DNA of 64,000 nt. Origin: Clostridiales bacterium. Lineage in GTDB: Bacteria; Bacillota; Clostridia; Oscillospirales; Oscillospiraceae. A model generated the notes under the pieces. That model was given only the letters and a program-made list of their open reading frames with translations, searched no databases and had not been told where the DNA came from. Location: assembly GCA_020859945.1 (NCBI GenBank), contig JAJBVG010000083.1, forward strand, positions 21,659-85,658, read 5' to 3'. Below are positions 2-56,581 of this stretch, piece after piece. Position 1 is the first letter of the stretch; each line of letters begins with the position of its first letter. Made by a program: the position numbers and the translations under genes.

Positions 2-2218
2 CTGTTCGTCAACAAAATGGACCTGGCGGGGACTGATCGGAAGGCGCTGACCGCCGACCTGAAACGCCGCCTGGATGAGAATTGCGTCCCCTTCGGCGGC
101 GGGGAGAGCGAAGCCCTTTGGGAGGAGCTGGCCCTCTGCGACGAGGCGCTGATGGAGCAGTATCTGGACACCGGCGCGATGGAGGACGAAGCGATAGCGG
201 GAGCCATCGCCCGCCGGCAGGTGTACCCCTGCTACTTTGGCGCGGCGCTGAAGCTGGAGGGGGTGGAGGCCCTGCTGGACGGGTTGGAGCGGTACACTGT
301 CTCTCCCACGTATCCGGCAGAATTTGGTGCGCAGGTCTATAAAATCGCCAGAGACAGTCAGGGGAACCGGCTGACCTACCTGAAAGTCACCGGCGGCAGT
401 CTGCCGGTGAAAACTGCCCTCTCCGGTGGGACGGAGGAAAACCAGTGGACGGAGAAGGTGGACCAGATCCGCATTTATTCCGGGGCCAAATACACCACCA
501 CCCCGCTGGCCCAGGCGGGGACGGTCTGCGCCGTCACCGGCCTGACCCATACCCGCCCCGGACAGGGCCTGGGCGGGGAAGAGGACGCCGCCCTGCCCCT
601 GCTGGAGCCGGTGCTGACGTATCAAATCCTTCTGCCCCCGGACTGCGACCCCAACGTCGCCTATTTGAAACTGAAAGAGCTGGAGGAGGAGGACCCCCAG
701 CTGCACATTCTCTGGGACGCCCGGCAGCGGAGCCTCCACATTCAGCTGATGGGACAGGTGCAGCTGGAGGTGCTGAAAAGCATGGTGGCCAGCCGCTTTG
801 GGCTGGGGGTGCGCTTCGGCCCCGGCGCCATCGTCTACAAGGAGACCATTCAGGCCCCGGTGGTAGGGGCGGGCCACTTCGAGCCGCTGCGCCACTATGC
901 GGAGGTTCACCTGCTGCTGGAGCCGGGGGAGCCGGGGTCCGGGCTGGTGTTCGACAGCCTTTGCAGCGAGGACGTGCTGGACCGGAACTGGCAGCGGCTG
1001 ATTTTGACCCATTTGGAGGAGAAAACCCACCTGGGGGTGCTGACTGGCTCCCCCATCACCGACATGAAAATCACCCTGCTCACCGGCAGGGCCCACGAGA
1101 AGCACACCGAGGGCGGCGACTTCCGTCAGGCTACCTACCGGGCGGTGCGGCAGGGGCTGATGCAGGCCCAGTCGGTGCTGCTGGAACCCTGGTACGCCTT
1201 CCGGCTGGAGCTGCCCCAGGAGAATCTGGGCCGGGCCATGGCGGACATCCAACTGATGGCAGGCAGCTTCGACCCGCCGGAGCTGGAGGGCGACCGGGCC
1301 ATTTTGACCGGCAGCGTGCCGGTGGCGACCATGGGGGACTACCAGACCCAGGTGGCCGCATACACCAGAGGCCGGGGTCGGCTCTCCTGTGCCCTCCAGG
1401 GCTACCGCCCCTGCCACAACCAGGACGAGGTGGTGGCCCAAATCGGCTACGACCCAGAGGCGGACGTGGAGAACACCCCCGACTCGGTATTCTGCTCCCA
1501 CGGGGTGGGAACCATCGTCAAATGGGACCAGGTGAAGGACCACCTGCACCTGGACAGCGGCGTTTCCTTTGAAACCGAAGCGGACGGAGAACCGGAACCG
1601 ACCCCGTCCGCGCCCCGGCAGAGCGGCGGCATCACTGCGGGGGACAAGGAATTACAGGCCATTTTTGAGAGGACCTACGGCCCGGTGAAGCGGCGGGACT
1701 TCCGTCCGCAGAAAGAGGTCAACGCGCCCACAGGCGGCGGAGAGAAAAAACGCGCTCCCCAATGGGATGGGGAACCTGTGAAAGAATTTCTGCTGGTGGA
1801 CGGCTACAATATCATCTTCGCCTGGGACGAGCTGAAAGTGCTGGCGAAGGAGGACCTGTCCGCCGCCCGGCAGTCCCTCATCGAGACGCTCCGCAACTAT
1901 CAGGGCTGCCGGGGCTGCGGCCTGATTCTGGTATTCGACGCCTACCGGGTGCCCCACAACCCCGGCTCAGTGGAGAAGCTGGATAATATTTATGTGGTCT
2001 ACACAAAACACGCTGAGACCGCCGACATGTACATCGAAAAGGTGACGTATGAAATTGGCCGGCGGTATCGGGTCCGGGTAGCCACCTCCGACGCGCTGGA
2101 GCAGGTCATCATTTTGGGCCACGGGGCCACGCGGGTCTCCGCCCGGATGTTCCGGGAGGAGGTGCGGCAGGCGGAGGCCGACCTGCGGCGGAGAATTGAA
2201 GAACACAACCAATCCTGA
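2..2218 (+). CDS. Translation-factor GTPase (TetM/TetO/EF-G-like), 5'-truncated by the window edge, fused to a C-terminal Rae1/YacP-type NYN ribonuclease domain
   Basis: The frame is open from the window edge. The first codons, LFVNKMD, contain the NKxD (G4) GTPase motif. The next ~500 aa are collinear with TetM/EF-G domains II-V. nt 1784-2215 encode LLVDGYN, LVFDA, ETAD and VATSD, the YacP/Rae1 NYN motifs. Stop codon at 2216-2218. Confidence 0.8.
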   Translation: MFVNKMDLAGTDRKALTADLKRRLDENCVPFGGGESEALWEELALCDEALMEQYLDTGAMEDEAIAGAIARRQVYPCYFGAALKLEGVEALLDGLERYTVSPTYPAEFGAQVYKIARDSQGNRLTYLKVTGGSLPVKTALSGGTEENQWTEKVDQIRIYSGAKYTTTPLAQAGTVCAVTGLTHTRPGQGLGGEEDAALPLLEPVLTYQILLPPDCDPNVAYLKLKELEEEDPQLHILWDARQRSLHIQLMGQVQLEVLKSMVASRFGLGVRFGPGAIVYKETIQAPVVGAGHFEPLRHYAEVHLLLEPGEPGSGLVFDSLCSEDVLDRNWQRLILTHLEEKTHLGVLTGSPITDMKITLLTGRAHEKHTEGGDFRQATYRAVRQGLMQAQSVLLEPWYAFRLELPQENLGRAMADIQLMAGSFDPPELEGDRAILTGSVPVATMGDYQTQVAAYTRGRGRLSCALQGYRPCHNQDEVVAQIGYDPEADVENTPDSVFCSHGVGTIVKWDQVKDHLHLDSGVSFETEADGEPEPTPSAPRQSGGITAGDKELQAIFERTYGPVKRRDFRPQKEVNAPTGGGEKKRAPQWDGEPVKEFLLVDGYNIIFAWDELKVLAKEDLSAARQSLIETLRNYQGCRGCGLILVFDAYRVPHNPGSVEKLDNIYVVYTKHAETADMYIEKVTYEIGRRYRVRVATSDALEQVIILGHGATRVSARMFREEVRQAEADLRRRIEEHNQS

Positions 2219-43475: not shown

Positions 43476-43510
43476 GGGCGGTATCCGAAATGGATACCGC
43501 CCCTTTTGTT
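43476..43510 (+). terminator. Intrinsic terminator of cstA
   Basis: 11 bp stem GGGCGGTATCC/GGATACCGCCC followed by a T-rich run. Confidence 0.8.
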
Positions 43511-43635
43511 TGGCTGTGGGTTTGTGTTGTAGTTGCAAATGGGGCTTGAATCAGCCCTATTTTCTGCGGGAAATTCCTCGTCACGCCTTTATGTGGCGGC
43601 GGAGGGGTAATTGCACATTGCACATTTCTAATTGC

Positions 43636-44142
43636 TCATTGTTCCCTGTGCCGCCCGAATCCCAGCAGCCGCCAGAAACCGCCCAGCAGCATGATAATGA
43701 CCAGCGCCACCAGCACGCCGGTCACGCCGCCGCCGAAGTCGATCCACACGTCCCGGACGGAGCCGTTGCGGTTGGCTACGTAGGTTTGCAGGGTTTCATC
43801 CATGTTGGCAACCAGCAGCACCAGAAACAGCGGCCAGCTGATGTGGCGGATGTAGTGCCGGGTGTAGACCCGAAGGCAGAGGGTGAACCAGAAGGCCAGC
43901 AGCGCATATTCCGCGAAGTGGGCCAGCTTGCGCACCACCGCCTCGGTCAAAGACAGCCCAATGGGGGACAGGCAGCGGTTGAGCAGGGCAGTGACCTCCT
44001 GGCTTCGGAGCGAGGAAGCTGCGCCGATTTCCAGAGAGTTGGAAAAGATGAACACCGTGGTGCCGACGGCAAAAAACGTAAAAACCACGCGGAACAGCAG
44101 CAGTAAAAAGCGCGCAAGGGCGGAAGGGCGTGAGCCAGCCAT
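43636..44142 (-). CDS. VanZ family membrane protein
   Basis: 168 aa with 4-5 TM segments and the VRKLAHFAEYALLAF motif. Confidence 0.75.
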   Translation of the reverse strand: MAGSRPSALARFLLLLFRVVFTFFAVGTTVFIFSNSLEIGAASSLRSQEVTALLNRCLSPIGLSLTEAVVRKLAHFAEYALLAFWFTLCLRVYTRHYIRHISWPLFLVLLVANMDETLQTYVANRNGSVRDVWIDFGGGVTGVLVALVIIMLLGGFWRLLGFGRHREQ

Positions 44143-53215: not shown

Positions 53216-54460
53216 TCAGGCTTTCCACCCGGCCAGGTAGTCCCGCTGCTCGTCGGTCAGCGTGTCGATGGCTAGGCCCATGGCCGCCAGCTTGACCCGG
53301 CCAATTTCGTCGTCGATTTCGGCGGGGACGGGGTAGAGCTTCTTTTCCAGCGTGTCCCGGTGGTTCAGCAGCCACTCCAGGCTCAGGGCCTGAACAGAAA
53401 AGCTCATGTCCATGATCTCCGCCGGGTGGCCGTTGCCCGCCGCCAGGTTCACCAGCCGCCCCTCGCCGATGACGTTCAGCGTGCGCCCGTCGGGGAGGGT
53501 ATAGCCCATGATGTTGTCCCGGCGGAGGGTCTCCTTCACCGCCATGCGCCGGAGGCTGGCCACGTCCACCTCGCAGTCGAAGTGACCGGCGTTGGTCAGC
53601 AGGGCCTGGTCCTTCATCACGGCGAAGTGCCGGGGGGTGATGACATCCTTGCAGCCGGTGACGGTGACGAAGATGTCGCCGTATTTCGCGGCCTCGTCCA
53701 TGGGCATGACCCGGAAACCGTTCATGGTGGCGTCCAGCGCCTTGAAGGGGTCGATTTCCGTGACGATGACGTTGGCGCCCATGCCCTTGGCGCGCATGGC
53801 TACGCCCTTGCCGCACCAGCCGTACCCGGCCACCACCACGGTTTTGCCCGCCACCACCAGGTTGCTGGTGTCCATAATGGCGGTCCACACGGACTGGCCG
53901 GTGCCGTATTTGTTGTCATAGTAGTGCTTGGCCTTGGCGTCGTTCACCGCCATCATCGCGCAGGGCAGCAGTCCCTCCCGCTCACGGGCTTTCAGCCGGT
54001 GGATGCCGGTGGTGGTCTCCTCACAGCCGCCGATGAGACAGTCGGCCAGGTCGGAGCGCCGTCCCCCCAGCAGGTTGATGAGGTCGCCGCCGTCGTCCAC
54101 GATGAGGTGGGGGTGGCAGGACAGGGCCTCCACCAGCAGATTTTCGTATTCTTCCGGCGTGACGCCGTGGATGCCGTAGGTCTCCACGCCCAGGGAGGCC
54201 ACCGCCGCCGCCACGTCGTCCTGGGTGGACAGGGGGTTGCAGCCGGTCAGATGGACCTCCGCGCCGCCCTTGGCCAACACCAGGCCCAGGTTGGCGGTCT
54301 TGGCCTCCAGGTGGACGGAGACGGCGATGCGCAGCCCCCGGAAGGGCTTTTCTTCTTCAAACCGCTTCTCAATGGCGGAGAGGGAGGGCATAAAAGACCG
54401 CACCCACTCGATTTTCCGCAGGCCGGAGGGGGCCAGGGACGGGTCCTTGATGGTACTCAT
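53216..54460 (-). CDS. ahcY: Adenosylhomocysteinase
   Basis: I preferred the ATG at 54460 (MSTIKDP) over the TTG at 54466, on RBS spacing. AhcY blocks include HLEAKTANL and the NAD-binding fold VAGYGWCGKG. Confidence 0.93.
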   Translation of the reverse strand: MSTIKDPSLAPSGLRKIEWVRSFMPSLSAIEKRFEEEKPFRGLRIAVSVHLEAKTANLGLVLAKGGAEVHLTGCNPLSTQDDVAAAVASLGVETYGIHGVTPEEYENLLVEALSCHPHLIVDDGGDLINLLGGRRSDLADCLIGGCEETTTGIHRLKAREREGLLPCAMMAVNDAKAKHYYDNKYGTGQSVWTAIMDTSNLVVAGKTVVVAGYGWCGKGVAMRAKGMGANVIVTEIDPFKALDATMNGFRVMPMDEAAKYGDIFVTVTGCKDVITPRHFAVMKDQALLTNAGHFDCEVDVASLRRMAVKETLRRDNIMGYTLPDGRTLNVIGEGRLVNLAAGNGHPAEIMDMSFSVQALSLEWLLNHRDTLEKKLYPVPAEIDDEIGRVKLAAMGLAIDTLTDEQRDYLAGWKA

Positions 54461-54523
54461 ATGCAAACGTTCCTTTCATGAAACAGAACATGGTTATCCC
54501 TTTGAATCGGCTGCGTTGTGACG

Positions 54524-54692
54524 AGCTATTAGCCGTTAGCTGTTAGCCATTAGTCAGGTACTACCAATTCAAAGAGAACAGCGCTAAACATCAGTTAGTT
54601 GTTAGCGGTTTGTTTTGTGTGGCGAACCCAAAGCGTAGAACGAATTGTTAAGCACTGCAAAGCTAATAGCTAAAAGCCAAGAGCTAACAGCT
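54524..54692 (+). repeat. TTAGC-heptad palindromic element A (169 nt)
   Basis: 39 nt left arm AGCTATTAGCCGTTAGCTGTTAGCCATTAGTCAGGTACT. 42 nt right arm AGCACTGCAAAGCTAATAGCTAAAAGCCAAGAGCTAACAGCT. The arms are largely complementary. The 88 nt centre is unique to this copy. Confidence 0.85.
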
Positions 54693-54872
54693 AAAATGCA
54701 CAAATGTCTGAGCAAACGGGACAACCAGAAAACAAATTTAGTTCGCCGGATATTGTATCACAGATTTCGACCCGCTGCAATCGCAAAACCCGCATTTTCC
54801 CGAATGTTCCGGCGGGATGGGGCGGGGAACCGGTCAAAAAAGGGCTTTTGCGCAAAAATTCACAAATAGCGC

Positions 54873-54901
54873 TGGACTTTCCTGCTCATCCGGGCTACAA
54901 T
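54873..54901 (+). promoter_or_regulatory. Candidate promoter of the rhomboid-like gene
   Basis: TGGACT, a 17 nt spacer, then TACAAT. A perfect palindrome TTTTGCGCAAAA lies 15 nt upstream (54846-54857). Confidence 0.4.
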
Positions 54902-54947
54902 ATGCGTTGTGAACATCCAAAACCGAACCTTTTGTGGAGGGGATCTC

Positions 54948-55826
54948 TTGAGAAAAATCAGCGCGGCGGTGGACCGCTTTTGTTACAATCACCCCAATTT
55001 CGGTATTCCCAACCTGATGTTGGTGGTCATCGTGGGCAACATCATCGTCTACGTGATGGATCTGCTCAGCAGCTACACCTTTTCCAGTGTGCTGGCCTTC
55101 ATCCCGGCGGCCATTTTTCAGGGGCAGATTTGGCGGCTGATTTCCTTTGTGTTTGTGCCGGAAAGCTCGTCCAACGTGATCGTCTTTGCCATCACACTGT
55201 ATTTTTACTACTTCATCGGCACCCAGTTGGAGAAATACTGGGGCACCGCCCGTTTCAACGTGTTCTACTTCGCCGGGGTGCTGCTGTCCATCCTCACCGG
55301 GTTCATCATCGCCGCGTTTAATGGCGGCATCCACTGCCCCTATGAGACGGCCAGCATCTACTATGTGAACATGTCCCTGTTCTTCTCCTTCGCCACCCTG
55401 TACCCGGATATGCGGGTACTGCTGTTCTATATCATCCCCATCAAAGTGAAATATCTGGCCTGGTTGGACGCGGCGCTGTTCGCCATTCAAATCATCCGCT
55501 ATTGTCTGGCTGGGATGTTCGTCTATGCGTTGCTGCCTGTCATCGCCCTGCTGAACTACTTCATTTTCTTCGGAGCCGACCTGATGGGAGCCGCCCGGCG
55601 CACCACCCGGCGGGTACAGCACCAGACCAGTTCCCAGACCATCCACTTCAAAAAAGCCGCCAAAGAGACCCAGCAGCACAAGGGCTACCTGCACAAGTGC
55701 TGCGTGTGTGGCCGCACTGACCAGGATTATCCCGATTTGGAGTTCCGTTACTGCTCCCGGTGCGCGGGCTACCGCTGCTACTGCATCGACCACATCAATA
55801 ACCACGTCCATGTGACAGAGGACTGA
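54948..55826 (+). CDS. Rhomboid-superfamily membrane protein lacking the canonical GxSG and His motifs, with a C-terminal Cys/His zinc-ribbon-like tail
   Basis: TTG at 54948 preceded by GGAGGGG (an alternative GTG at 54909 has no RBS). GQIWRLISFVFVP resembles rhomboid TM2. The tail reads CCVCGR..YCSRCAGYRCYCIDHINNHVH. Confidence 0.65.
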   Translation: MRKISAAVDRFCYNHPNFGIPNLMLVVIVGNIIVYVMDLLSSYTFSSVLAFIPAAIFQGQIWRLISFVFVPESSSNVIVFAITLYFYYFIGTQLEKYWGTARFNVFYFAGVLLSILTGFIIAAFNGGIHCPYETASIYYVNMSLFFSFATLYPDMRVLLFYIIPIKVKYLAWLDAALFAIQIIRYCLAGMFVYALLPVIALLNYFIFFGADLMGAARRTTRRVQHQTSSQTIHFKKAAKETQQHKGYLHKCCVCGRTDQDYPDLEFRYCSRCAGYRCYCIDHINNHVHVTED

Positions 55827-55833
55827 AATCAGC

Positions 55834-55986
55834 AGCTATTAGCTGTTAGCCGTTAGCTGTTAGCTAGGTACTGCATACCACGTGCGAGTTGCAGGAAAAA
55901 TGGGGACGATTAGCCGCTGGTTATGAACCACGAACCATTTGTCTAGCACTGCCAAGCTAACAGCCAAAAGCTAGTAGCTAACAGCT
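55834..55986 (+). repeat. TTAGC-heptad palindromic element B (153 nt)
   Basis: Arms of the same length and orientation as element A (33/39 and 36/42 identical). The 72 nt centre is unrelated. It starts 8 nt after the upstream stop and ends 3 nt before the next RBS. Confidence 0.85.
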
Positions 55987-56005
55987 CATTTAGGAGGCAA
56001 TTCAA

Positions 56006-56581
56006 ATGAAAAAGTTATCAGGCAAAGAACTGGGCGCCAAGCTGGTCGGCAAGGCCAAAGACGCCCTCTCCGACACCGTCAAGCGGTCCGAGCTGATGGC
56101 GCTGAACCGCCAGATGGACAAAGTGACCCCCGTCATGGAGGAGTTGGAGCTGCTGATGGACGAATATCAGGTCTGCGACCAGAAGCTCCAGGAGCTGAAC
56201 GACCAACTGGAGCATCCCTCTCCGGCGGCGCGGCTGCCCATCGTGGCCCAGCTGACCCGTCAGCCCGACCCGGCAGAGCTGAAAAGCCAAATCGCCGCCT
56301 ACCGCACCATGCGGGCGGGGGTAGAAGGCCATATGCTCCAGCTGGTGCGTCTCCAGTGCAAGGACTTCACCTTCCTGGGCAGCTACCTGTACCCCGTGGC
56401 GGTGGGCGAGATCAGCCGTTGCTTGGAGGACGGTGCGGCAGAGGACCTGCACACCGCCATCGGTCTCTACGAGGACCAGCTGGAGCGCTGGCGGGAGACG
56501 GGCAGCGAGGGCGAACGGCTCCGCAAGGCCCAGTGGCAGGCGGAGTATATGGCCAAGCTGCTGAAAACCATCAACGAATAA
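56006..56581 (+). CDS. Hypothetical coiled-coil protein
   Basis: 191 aa with TAGGAGG upstream. Heptad-like Leu/Glu/Gln-rich sequence, no motif I recognise. Confidence 0.55.
   Translation: MKKLSGKELGAKLVGKAKDALSDTVKRSELMALNRQMDKVTPVMEELELLMDEYQVCDQKLQELNDQLEHPSPAARLPIVAQLTRQPDPAELKSQIAAYRTMRAGVEGHMLQLVRLQCKDFTFLGSYLYPVAVGEISRCLEDGAAEDLHTAIGLYEDQLERWRETGSEGERLRKAQWQAEYMAKLLKTINE

What the first reader, a model, noticed from the sequence alone, without database searches (positions are those of the whole stretch)
54524..54692. Element A: 169 nt palindromic element whose arms are TTAGCNN heptad repeats with stop codons in all six frames
Left arm: AGCTA-TTAGCCG-TTAGCTG-TTAGCCA-TTAGTCA-GGTACT. Right arm: AGCACTGCAA-AGCTAAT-AGCTAAA-AGCCAAG-AGCTAAC-AGCT. 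Folded as a hairpin, the arms give about 28 Watson-Crick or G-T pairs out of 39, with periodic mismatches. The 88 nt centre contains two more heptads (TTAGTTG-TTAGCGG, 54594-54607). Because 7 is not a multiple of 3, the repeated TAG (TAA/TAG on the other strand) places stops in every reading frame on both strands. The element lies in the divergent spacer between ahcY and the rhomboid-like gene. I cannot match it to any RNA or repeat class known to me.
Basis: seen in the sequence. Interest (0 to 1): 0.7.

Follow-up and report, generated by a model that had tools for sequence, protein, structure and literature searches.

The report
Foldback repeat with heptad-repeat arms
This is one copy of a small non-coding repeat whose two inverted arms are runs of TTAGCNN; it was inserted into the leader of the ahcY gene in an uncultured gut Clostridiales bacterium, and it belongs to a widespread, poorly understood type of bacterial and phage intergenic repeat rather than to a new RNA gene.

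Summary
The arms are as quoted, pair at 29 of 39 positions, and stops occur in all six frames.

- **Extent.** The unit is larger than reported, about 54491-54704.
- **Repeated.** A second copy (B, about 55827-55990) lies 1.3 kb away. It shares only the arms and junction motifs (85-86%); its centre is unrelated (42%). A third copy, 82-84% identical over its whole length, lies in another Clostridiales MAG, between rlmN and a PP2C phosphatase gene.
- **Inserted.** The relatives sampled, whose rhomboid orthologues are 71-77% identical, lack the elements wherever the matching spacer is covered. A conserved ahcY promoter places A inside the ahcY 5' UTR.
- **Unmatched.** Nothing in Rfam, phage or plasmid records or the literature matches it.
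- **Wider class.** Inverted arrays of 4-5 heptads occur across many phyla and in phage contigs, with various heptads. They lie mostly after genes, have a fixed arm order (TTAG...CTAA 106:3) and a G-rich 5' arm (49:3), the reverse of terminator-like hairpins.

Best reading: a REP/MITE-like dispersed foldback repeat, co-transcribed with neighbouring genes and tolerated at gene ends because it stops translation in every frame. How it spreads and what it does to RNA are inferred, not shown.

The parts
54491..54704 (.). Element A, full repeat unit as defined by homology
   Evidence: blastn 54495-54698 against L081 2618-2814, 84% identity with unrelated flanks. nhmmer envelope 54491-54704.
54491..54523 (.).
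   Evidence: 79% identical to L081. TGGTTATCCC is also present in the partial copy in L011. Only 33% identical to B.
54524..54562 (+). Left arm: AGCTA, four TTAGYNN heptads, GGTACT junction
   Evidence: 85% identical to B and 82% to L081.
54563..54650 (.). Centre of A (88 nt), specific to the subfamily
   Evidence: 82% identical to L081 but 42% to B. Stops in all frames, so no ORF.
54651..54692 (-). Right arm: AGCACTGCAA junction and four NNGCTAA-type heptads (TTAGC-type on the - strand), then AGCT
   Evidence: 86% identical to both B and L081.
54752..54780 (-). Promoter-like site for ahcY: TTGCAG, 17 nt, TACAAT preceded by TG. It places A inside the ahcY 5' UTR.
   Evidence: The motif ATTGTATCA-N15-TGCAA is conserved in the 76% relative (L249 2361-2389), 45 nt from its ahcY ATG. 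Here it is 292 nt from the ATG. The promoter function is inferred from the consensus match.
54873..54901 (+). Promoter-like site for the rhomboid-like gene (TGGACT-17-TACAAT), downstream of A
   Evidence: conserved in L249-L251.
53216..54460 (-). ahcY (S-adenosylhomocysteine hydrolase)
   Evidence: Pfam AdoHcyase and AdoHcyase_NAD. ATG start read.
54948..55826 (+). Rhomboid-like membrane protein gene, flanked by A and B
   Evidence: NCBI names the identical protein as a rhomboid family protease. Weak Pfam Rhomboid hit, E = 0.0037.
55827..55990 (.). Element B: second copy in the same orientation, in the spacer between the rhomboid-like gene and the 191-aa gene
   Evidence: Arms 55834-55874 and 55946-55986 are 78% complementary to each other and pair at 35 of 41 positions when G-T pairs are counted. 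They are 85-86% identical to A's arms. Absent from the orthologous spacers of L249, L244, L624 and L626.
56006..56581 (+). 191-aa gene of unknown function downstream of B; its AGGAGG ribosome-binding site lies just after B's right arm

Best explanation
Element A is a copy of a small non-coding dispersed repeat, a 'foldback' element of REP/MITE type. Its two ends are inverted arrays of four TTAGCNN heptads joined to short conserved junctions (GGTACT and AGCACTGC), around a centre that can be swapped.

It was inserted in this lineage between the ahcY promoter and the ahcY ribosome-binding site. Its sister copy B was inserted between the rhomboid-like gene and the next gene.

The copies are carried passively on the mRNAs of their neighbours. 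A and the L081 and L011 copies are read on the - strand, and B on the + strand. In the RNA they can fold into an imperfect stem of about 35-40 bp.

Because 7 is not a multiple of 3, each arm places TAG (or TAA on the other strand) in every frame. Any ribosome entering from either side is therefore released. This lets the element sit against, or even inside, the last codons of a gene.

The likely consequence for the host is a long intercistronic or 5' UTR hairpin that alters mRNA processing or stability, as REP elements and RNase III sites do.

What is shown: the repeat nature, the insertion, the location relative to promoters and ORFs, and use of an arm TAG as a stop codon. What is inferred: transcription, RNA folding in vivo, any effect on expression, and the means of spread.
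For: 1. Multi-copy with unrelated flanks.
- A and B lie in the window. L081, from Clostridiales MAG C.4_4, is 84% identical over 204 nt and sits between rlmN and a PP2C gene. A partial copy lies in L011, between FTCD_C and a 2-hydroxyacid dehydrogenase gene.
- Short-read contigs of the same species break inside the arms (L242, L243, L265), as expected of a repeated sequence.

2. Modular structure. Between A and B the arms are 85-86% identical and the centre 42%. Between A and L081 every segment is about 82% identical.

3. Insertion. Relatives with rhomboid orthologues 71-77% identical lack the elements wherever the spacer is covered.
- A site: L249-L251 keep the ahcY-rhomboid neighbourhood and have a 245-nt spacer without the element, against 487 nt here.
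- B site: the spacer is 53, 4, 54 and 31 nt in L249, L244, L624 and L626, against 179 nt here.
- The element model finds no match in these loci or in L245-L248, L625 and L627, where the gene neighbourhood differs.

4. Position in transcripts.
- The ahcY promoter motif is conserved, but lies 292 nt from the ATG here against 45 nt in the relative.
- The L081 copy sits inside the rsmB-rlmN-PP2C gene string, all on the - strand.

5. All-frame stops in use.
- The rlmN ORF in L081 ends at 2800, on a TAG of the arm.
- Across 170 TTAG arrays in other genomes, 88 have an incoming open frame of at least 100 codons ending within -40 to +24 nt. Twenty-four of these end on the array's own TAG.

6. REP-like placement of the wider type. 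Of 53 paired TTAG arrays, 24 lie between same-direction genes, 19 between convergent genes and 1 between divergent genes; 9 were unresolved.

7. Hairpin potential: z = -4.2 for A on the - strand, -3.3 and -4.0 for B.

8. No transposase, integrase, RAYT, HutP or 23S-rRNA-IVS-type gene was found in the window. The 40 longest predicted ORFs, including all those around the elements, are core chromosomal genes or match no Pfam family.
Against: - Only three full copies and one partial copy could be collected. The copy number in the source genome is unknown.
- No target-site duplication, terminal inverted repeat beyond the arms, or empty site in a close strain could be defined. No enzyme that could move the element was found, so mobility rests on distribution alone.
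- There are no compensatory changes in the arms, and L081 lost one left-arm heptad. The L081 fold is not unusual on the - strand (z = -1.5). Selection for an RNA hairpin is therefore unproven.
- A lies in a divergent spacer, which is atypical for the type.
- No expression data were available.
Confidence: 0.55

Rival explanations
1. A selected cis-acting RNA element. The long imperfect hairpin would be the functional part, for example an RNase III processing site or a stabiliser that uncouples the stability of neighbouring cistrons or tunes ahcY translation. Its spread would be secondary.
For: - Stems of about 30-35 pairs with z down to -4.2.
- The - strand of A gains about five G-U pairs over the + strand, and the - strand is the one inferred to be transcribed.
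- Copies lie in 5' UTR or intercistronic positions.
- In some other genomes the arms are exact mirror images, for example L053 with 12 of 12 variable positions complementary. The mean complementarity of variable positions is 0.65 against 0.46 for shuffled partners.
Against: - No covariation among A, B and L081. One heptad was deleted on one side only.
- The variable positions of A pair at only 6 of 12.
- The element is absent from relatives that have the same genes, so it is not needed for their regulation.
- Orientation relative to transcription differs between B and the A/L081 subfamily.
- The shuffled-partner control is confounded, because the two arms of one genome share the same heptad flavour.
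Confidence: 0.2
2. An array of binding sites on double-stranded DNA for an oligomerising protein, one subunit per heptad. The known example is the omega repressor and centromere-binding protein of plasmid pSM19035, which binds runs of 7-bp repeats in direct or inverted order (recalled from memory, not tested here).
For: - 7-bp period, 4-5 units per arm, inverted arms with a fixed order (106:3).
- Comparable paired heptanucleotide sites in Geobacter metallireducens were annotated as putative global-regulator sites (PMC2700814).
Against: - Paired arrays avoid divergent, promoter-bearing spacers (1 of 53).
- Several unrelated heptads coexist in one genome and even in one element (L092, L070, L017). 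That would require many specific proteins.
- No candidate binding protein is encoded nearby.
- The spacer between arms varies from 0 to 190 nt.
Confidence: 0.1
3. Plain slippage products. Heptanucleotide simple-sequence repeats would arise and decay in place, with neither mobility nor function.
For: - Heptamers are reported as the commonest long simple-sequence repeat class in prokaryotes (summarised in PMC4679880).
- Unit number differs between A (4) and L081 (3) in the left arm.
Against: - A composite of left extension, arm, junction, 88-nt centre, junction and arm is 82-84% conserved between two species at unrelated loci. Slippage cannot produce that.
- The fixed arm order and the G/C asymmetry need an explanation beyond slippage.
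- The same-species contigs scored identically to the window against the element model, so they show no sign of copy-number change.
Confidence: 0.08
4. Binding sites for a HutP-like antiterminator on RNA. HutP recognises UAG triplets separated by 4 nt, a 7-nt period, in the 5' side of a terminator hairpin (recalled from memory).
For: The 5' arm on either strand reads UAG-N4-UAG-N4-UAG-N4-UAG and forms the 5' half of a hairpin.
Against: - No U-tract follows the stem on either strand, and no terminator-like site is called in the elements.
- The same architecture occurs with heptads that lack UAG, and in phyla and phages where no HutP is known to me.
- No HutP gene lies in the window.
- The neighbouring genes are unrelated housekeeping genes.
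Confidence: 0.04

Closest known systems
REP/BIME elements of Enterobacteria and Pseudomonas (repetitive extragenic palindromes)
   Same: Short non-coding imperfect palindromes, dispersed and co-transcribed. They lie after genes or between same-direction and convergent genes, and rarely between divergent ones; one search shows this for the heptad type. The REP distribution, and their known effects on mRNA stability and on translation when close to stop codons, are recalled from memory.
   Different: The arms here are tandem heptads rather than a single GC-rich stem. There is no GTAG/GGAG head. No RAYT transposase was seen. The copy number is unknown. The element is longer (about 160-210 nt) and has a variable centre.
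[quoted passage not shown]
   Same: Size under 300 bp, inverted ends, no coding capacity, several copies at unrelated sites, families that share ends but differ in the middle, and presence/absence between relatives.
   Different: No target-site duplication could be defined. No parent insertion sequence with the same ends is known. The left end carries an asymmetric 33-nt extension.
Bacterial heptanucleotide tandem repeats: cyanobacterial STRR (recalled from memory), TAACTGA repeats of Beggiatoaceae, Cyanobacteria and Bacteroidetes (PMC4679880), paired four- and five-heptanucleotide sites of Geobacter metallireducens (PMC2700814), and Nostoc heptamer repeats near recF and recO (bioRxiv 10.1101/2022.06.06.494920)
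   Same: Period 7, typically 3-6 units, intergenic, next to start or stop codons, stops in all three frames, scattered across phyla, function unknown. The Geobacter class-3 sites are drawn as two-arm, strand-switching alignments, like the arms here.
   Different: Those reports treat the repeats as local sites. Here the arrays form the ends of a discrete unit about 210 nt long that recurs with its non-repetitive parts in another species. The TTAGCNN unit and a Clostridiales host were not found in the literature searched.
Intrinsic (Rho-independent) terminators
   Same: A hairpin downstream of genes. In other genomes the heptad arms enclose a GC-rich hairpin flanked by A and T runs (L053, L083, L104).
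   Different: A and B have no U-tract. The G/C polarity of the arms is the reverse. In terminator-like hairpins in the same sequences the 5' arm has G<C in 72 and G>C in 19. In inverted heptad arrays it has G>C in 49 and G<C in 3.

Membership tests
Rfam ncRNA or cis-regulatory families | Score at or above a family's gathering threshold | tested here: not met
   Whole window at gathering threshold: only one tRNA. Region 54400-56100 at E <= 10: three sub-threshold chance hits, none credible; the one over B is a plant miRNA at 15.7 bits against a threshold of 75.
MITE | Terminal inverted repeats | tested here: met
   Arms of 39-41 nt, 29 of 39 (A) and 35 of 41 (B) positions complementary when G-T pairs are counted. 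The repeat finder reports 78% for B.
MITE | Several copies at unrelated loci, present or absent between relatives | tested here: met
   A, B, L081 and the partial L011 copy. Absent from L249-251 at the A site and from L244, L249, L624 and L626 at the B site.
MITE | Target-site duplication flanking the element | tested here: inconclusive
   The nearest available empty sites belong to relatives whose rhomboid orthologue is only about 76% identical at protein level, and their spacers do not align at the junctions. No direct repeat is evident at the ends defined by homology.
MITE | An autonomous insertion sequence with the same ends | not testable with these tools
   None in the window or between paired arrays in the 120 genome loci. 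The complete genomes could not be searched.
REP/BIME | Conserved GTAG/GGAG head, a 20-40 nt GC-rich palindrome, and a RAYT gene in the genome | tested here: not met
   The arms are TTAGC heptads at 42-44% G+C and there is no GTAG head. A RAYT gene is absent from the window; the whole genome was not testable.
REP/BIME | Extragenic, co-transcribed, after genes and rare between divergent genes | tested here: met
   Met for the heptad type as a whole: 24 tandem, 19 convergent and 1 divergent out of 53. Copy A itself lies in a divergent spacer, but inside the ahcY 5' UTR.
Heptanucleotide tandem repeats (STRR/LSSR type) | At least three head-to-tail 7-nt units in intergenic DNA | tested here: met
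   TRF period 7, 4.3 and 5.4 copies. Pattern count 15 against 1.36 expected.
Integron attC site | 5'-RYYYAAC ... GTTRRRY-3' order of the inverse core and core sites | tested here: not met
   The order here is the reverse on both strands: 5'-GTTAGCY ... RGCTAAC-3' (read). No integrase gene lies in the window.
HutP-type antiterminator site | UAG-N4 repeats that overlap the 5' half of an intrinsic terminator, together with a hutP gene | tested here: not met
   The UAG spacing is met, but there is no U-tract or terminator call and no HutP family hit in the window.
Composite transposon carrying the rhomboid-like gene | The flanked gene is absent from the locus in relatives that lack the repeats | tested here: not met
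   L249-L251 keep ahcY, the rhomboid-like gene and the 186-aa gene in the same order without either element. L624 keeps the rhomboid-like and 186-aa genes without B; its contig starts about 110 nt upstream of the gene, so its A site is not covered.

The most novel reading that the evidence does not exclude
Element A may be a member of a cross-phylum class, not yet described as such, of 'heptad foldback' elements. These are two inverted arrays of about 4-5 heptanucleotides around a variable spacer, found in Clostridia, Bacteroidota, Cyanobacteria, Acidobacteriota, Planctomycetota, Saccharibacteria and phage contigs.

The class obeys rules that no known mechanism predicts:
- a fixed arm order (TTAG...CTAA 106:3);
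- a G-rich 5' arm on both strands whatever the heptad (49:3);
- a polarity opposite to terminator-like hairpins (19:72);
- placement after genes.

Such rules would imply a shared agent with a 7-nt footprint. It could be a mobilising enzyme or a protein that binds single-stranded nucleic acid, and it remains to be found.
Probability: 0.2. Interest if true: 0.75.

Novelty: new variant of a known kind. Interest (0 to 1): 0.42.

Why it matters
For this genome the finding is modest. A selfish-looking repeat has lengthened the ahcY leader from about 45 to about 290 nt and has separated two genes that were probably co-transcribed. That could change their expression.

The wider point is more useful. 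Heptanucleotide repeats are among the commonest unexplained features of bacterial intergenic DNA. This case shows them as the ends of a discrete, transferable unit. The quick survey made here also yields simple, testable regularities: arm order, G/C asymmetry opposite to terminator-like hairpins, avoidance of divergent spacers, and reuse of the arm's TAG as a gene's stop codon. A genome-wide study could confirm these and use them to look for the responsible protein.

Tried and rejected
**Searches that yielded nothing useful**
- Metagenome scan with the junction pattern TTAGYNNTTAGNNAGGTACT.
- The same pattern in viral contigs gave 9 chance hits.
- Distant blastn of A against plasmids and phages gave only a short arm-like match in a Pseudanabaena plasmid and no annotation.
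- Exact-sequence look-ups never returned the 137-kb NCBI contig that carries the rhomboid-like protein. The source genome could not be extended beyond the window.
- Literature searches for the arm sequences and for a link between heptamers and 23S-rRNA-IVS proteins found nothing relevant.

**Tests that could not give an answer**
- Counting TTAG arrays against control cores to ask whether TTAG is special.
- Covariation analysis. Three sequences give no power.

**Ideas considered and dropped**
- The arms might mark a mobile unit carrying a 23S-rRNA-IVS (four-helix-bundle, bAvd-like) gene, as in L023. Only 3 of several hundred loci hold such a gene, so this is not general.
- Arrays about 300-500 nt apart might be transposon ends. 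They simply flank ordinary genes such as rpsI and chorismate mutase.
- The proximity of arrays to ORF ends (52% against 5.5% at random positions) is largely a trivial result of being confined to short spacers. Only the share that ends on the array's own TAG and the 2:1 orientation bias of solitary arrays (46 against 21) are informative.
- An outward promoter in the left extension: only 8 of 12 consensus matches by eye, and not called by the scan.
- A small upstream ORF in the A leader: not conserved in L081.
- attC site, HutP site and composite transposon: rejected on the tests listed under membership.

Full report
**1. The observation**

- The left arm is AGCTA, four TTAGYNN units and GGTACT.
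- The right arm is AGCACTGCAA, four NNGCTAA-type units and AGCT.
- Laid against each other without gaps, the arms give 27 Watson-Crick and 2 G-T pairs out of 39.
- Every one of the six frames has 4-6 stops.
- Tandem Repeats Finder reports period-7 arrays at both arms.
- TTAGCNNTTAGC with at most one mismatch occurs 15 times in the window against 1.36 expected. Fourteen of these lie here or in a sister element.
- The RNA fold is modest on the + strand (-49.6 kcal/mol, z = -1.8) and clearly unusual on the - strand (-56.7 kcal/mol, z = -4.2).

**2. It is a repeat, and larger than reported**

A second copy, B, lies at about 55827-55990 in the same orientation, directly after the stop codon of the rhomboid-like gene.

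A genome-collection scan for TTAGYNN arrays brought in locus L081, from Clostridiales MAG C.4_4. It matches window 54495-54698 at 84% identity, while nothing else in that 8-kb locus matches the window. An HMM of the three copies places A at 54491-54704.

| Segment | A vs L081 | A vs B |
|---|---|---|
| Left extension | 79% | 33% |
| Left arm | 82% | 85% |
| Centre | 82% | 42% |
| Right arm | 86% | 86% |

The conserved module is therefore the pair of arms with their junction motifs, and the centre is interchangeable.

A partial copy sits in L011 of the same MAG. It has the TGGTTATCCC left end joined to a right arm.

Short-read contigs of the window's own species end inside the arms, as repeats make them do.

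Rfam has no match. Phage and plasmid collections carry no annotated equivalent. The arm sequences occur in no relevant paper.

**3. It is an insertion, and where it sits**

The rhomboid-like protein has orthologues of 71-77% identity in short contigs of related uncultured bacteria.
- L249-L251 keep ahcY, the rhomboid-like gene and a 186-aa gene in the same order. Their two spacers are 245 and 53 nt, against 487 and 179 nt here, and neither holds the element.
- L244, L624 and L626 also lack B. L625, L627 and the differently arranged L245-L248 hold no copy either.
- Because the gene order is kept without the repeats, A and B did not bring the rhomboid-like gene in.

The rhomboid-like gene's promoter-like site (54873-54901) is conserved and lies to the right of A.

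On the other strand, the motif TTGCA-N15-TGATACAAT is found at 54780-54752 and in the relative at L249 2389-2361. It gives -35 TTGCAG, a 17-nt spacer and a TG-extended -10 TACAAT. It lies 45 nt from the ahcY ATG in the relative and 292 nt from it here.

I infer that A was inserted into the ahcY 5' UTR and is transcribed on the - strand.

In L081 the element lies between rlmN and a PP2C phosphatase gene, within an rsmB-rlmN-PP2C string on the - strand. The rlmN reading frame ends on a TAG of the right arm; its ORF ends at 2800, inside the element at 2618-2814.

In L011 the partial copy lies between two - strand genes.

B lies between two + strand genes that are 4-54 nt apart in relatives. So B is read in the opposite sense to A and L081. 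This is possible because on either strand the RNA begins with UUAGCNN units and ends with NNGCUAA units.

The window is core chromosome (rpoB, rpoC, pfk, pyk, ppk, purF, ahcY). It holds no transposase, integrase, RAYT, HutP or IVS-protein gene.

**4. No evidence that pairing itself is selected**

Between A and L081 the right arm has about six substitutions. The left arm has none, but lacks a whole heptad.

RNAalifold on three copies gives 2 of 44 pairs with double changes and a positive covariation term.

Each copy has one decayed GCCAA unit at a different position.

The L081 fold is unremarkable on the - strand (z = -1.5) and better on the + strand (z = -2.7).

With three sequences this is weak evidence either way. 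What is visibly conserved is the TTAGC core in inverted orientation.

**5. The wider setting**

Hits came from Cyanobacteria, Bacteroidota, Acidobacteriota, Planctomycetota, Chloroflexota, Desulfobacterota, Saccharibacteria, several Clostridia and others. A viral-contig scan also saturated.

About 28-29% of TTAG arrays have an inverted partner within 200 nt. The order is almost always TTAG...CTAA: 52:3 in genomes and 54:0 in viral contigs.

The arrays usually have 4-5 units, and the spacer is 0-190 nt. In some genomes the spacer is a GC-rich hairpin flanked by A and T runs (L053, L083, L104).

TTAG is not demonstrably special.
- Control patterns with GATT or TGTA cores also saturate.
- A sequence-agnostic period-7 scan of all 623 held loci finds 997 arrays and 81 inverted pairs with many different units.
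- Several heptads can coexist in one genome or one element (L017, L070, L092).

Two regularities emerged.
- Paired TTAG arrays lie between same-direction genes (24) or convergent genes (19), and almost never between divergent ones (1 of 53). The placement after genes resembles what I recall for REP elements.
- In inverted heptad pairs the 5' arm has G>C in 49 unique cases and G<C in 3. For units that do not contain the searched cores the counts are 19-20 against 2. Terminator-like hairpins in the same sequences show the reverse, 19 against 72.

A and B follow the G>C rule weakly (G-C = +3 and +7 over both arms). I have no explanation for this asymmetry.

Caveats on this survey: the sample is small and was ascertained through three patterns, and several pairs come from the same contigs.

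**6. Reading**

The best-supported account is a REP/MITE-like dispersed foldback repeat.
- It has spread to at least four sites in two species.
- It rides on host transcripts.
- It can sit at gene boundaries because its arms stop translation in all frames.
- It adds a long imperfect hairpin to the mRNA.

Shown: the repeat family, the insertion, the position relative to promoters and ORFs, and the use of an arm TAG as the rlmN stop.

Inferred: transcription, folding in the cell, any effect on expression, and the means of spread, for which no enzyme was found.

Rivals are a selected RNA processing or stability hairpin, a DNA operator array of the omega type, plain slippage, and a HutP-like site. 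Each fits some features and fails others, as set out in their own entries.

**7. Comparison with what is known, and novelty**

Heptanucleotide repeats near gene ends are on record.
- TAACTGA repeats occur in Beggiatoaceae, Cyanobacteria and Bacteroidetes (PMC4679880).
- Four- and five-unit paired sites occur in Geobacter metallireducens (PMC2700814).
- Heptamer repeats lie near recF and recO in Nostoc (bioRxiv 10.1101/2022.06.06.494920).
- The cyanobacterial STRR repeats are recalled from memory.

Their function is stated to be unknown in all of these.

What is new here:
- a TTAGCNN family in uncultured Clostridiales;
- its status as a discrete unit about 210 nt long, conserved between species together with its non-repetitive parts;
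- the insertion evidence.

I rate it a new variant of a known kind, of moderate interest. A less likely but more interesting possibility is that the polarity rules point to a common, undiscovered mechanism.

Noticed in passing
window 55827-55990: Element B, the sister copy. It starts directly after the TGA of the rhomboid-like gene and ends 5 nt before the AGGAGG ribosome-binding site of the 191-aa gene. Its stem is better than A's (35 of 41 positions paired, z = -3.3 and -4.0).
   Followed up: yes
window 43610-43641: A solitary, decayed period-7 array (ATTGCAC ATTGCAC ATTTCTA ATTGCTC). It overlaps the stop codon of the VanZ-like gene on the - strand. It resembles the CTAATTG arrays next to the partial element in L011 and those in Acutalibacteraceae locus L092. 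A terminator-like hairpin lies about 100 nt upstream, at 43476-43510.
   Followed up: partly
all held loci: In inverted heptad arrays of any sequence the 5' arm is G-rich and the 3' arm C-rich on both strands (49:3). Terminator-like hairpins in the same DNA show the opposite polarity (19:72). This is unexplained.
   Followed up: partly
L023 3197-3664; L070 4700-5350: A 122-aa gene of the 23S rRNA intervening-sequence protein / bAvd family (PF05635, E = 1e-42) is nested between TTAGTGG arms in a Ruminococcus MAG. A homologue in a Thermodesulfobacteriota MAG is flanked by other heptad arrays (GGCAAAG, GTTCGAT). Only 3 loci of several hundred hold such a gene, so this is not a general association.
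   Followed up: partly
L081 2800-2814: The rlmN reading frame of Clostridiales MAG C.4_4 runs into the element and ends on a TAG of the right arm (...H F S S stop). Across other genomes, 24 of 170 TTAG arrays likewise supply the stop codon of a long incoming open frame.
   Followed up: yes
L092 1-520; L038 2100-7100; L004, L017 and L051: Other Oscillospirales and Clostridia MAGs carry different composite repeats built from the same or other heptads, for example GCATTAT x3 followed by CTAATTG x4, TTAGCAA arrays, and TTAGCYG arms with TGAGTTAGTGTGCG internal modules. Some are tandemly reiterated several times within a few kb.
   Followed up: no
L266, L289, L335 (viral contigs): In phage contigs, inverted TTAG arrays fill very short spacers. 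They can end only about 6-25 nt before a start codon, in L335 with no recognisable ribosome-binding site. This resembles the TAACTGA repeats described in Beggiatoaceae.
   Followed up: no
window 55620-55684: A sub-threshold Rfam hit to the SAM_alpha riboswitch (18.1 bits against a threshold of 36, E = 0.36) inside the rhomboid-like coding sequence. It is almost certainly chance.
   Followed up: no
window 17-2218: The longest ORF at the window's start joins EF-G-like domains (IV and C) to a C-terminal YacP-like NYN nuclease domain. This may be a real fusion or an artefact of my crude ORF calling.
   Followed up: no
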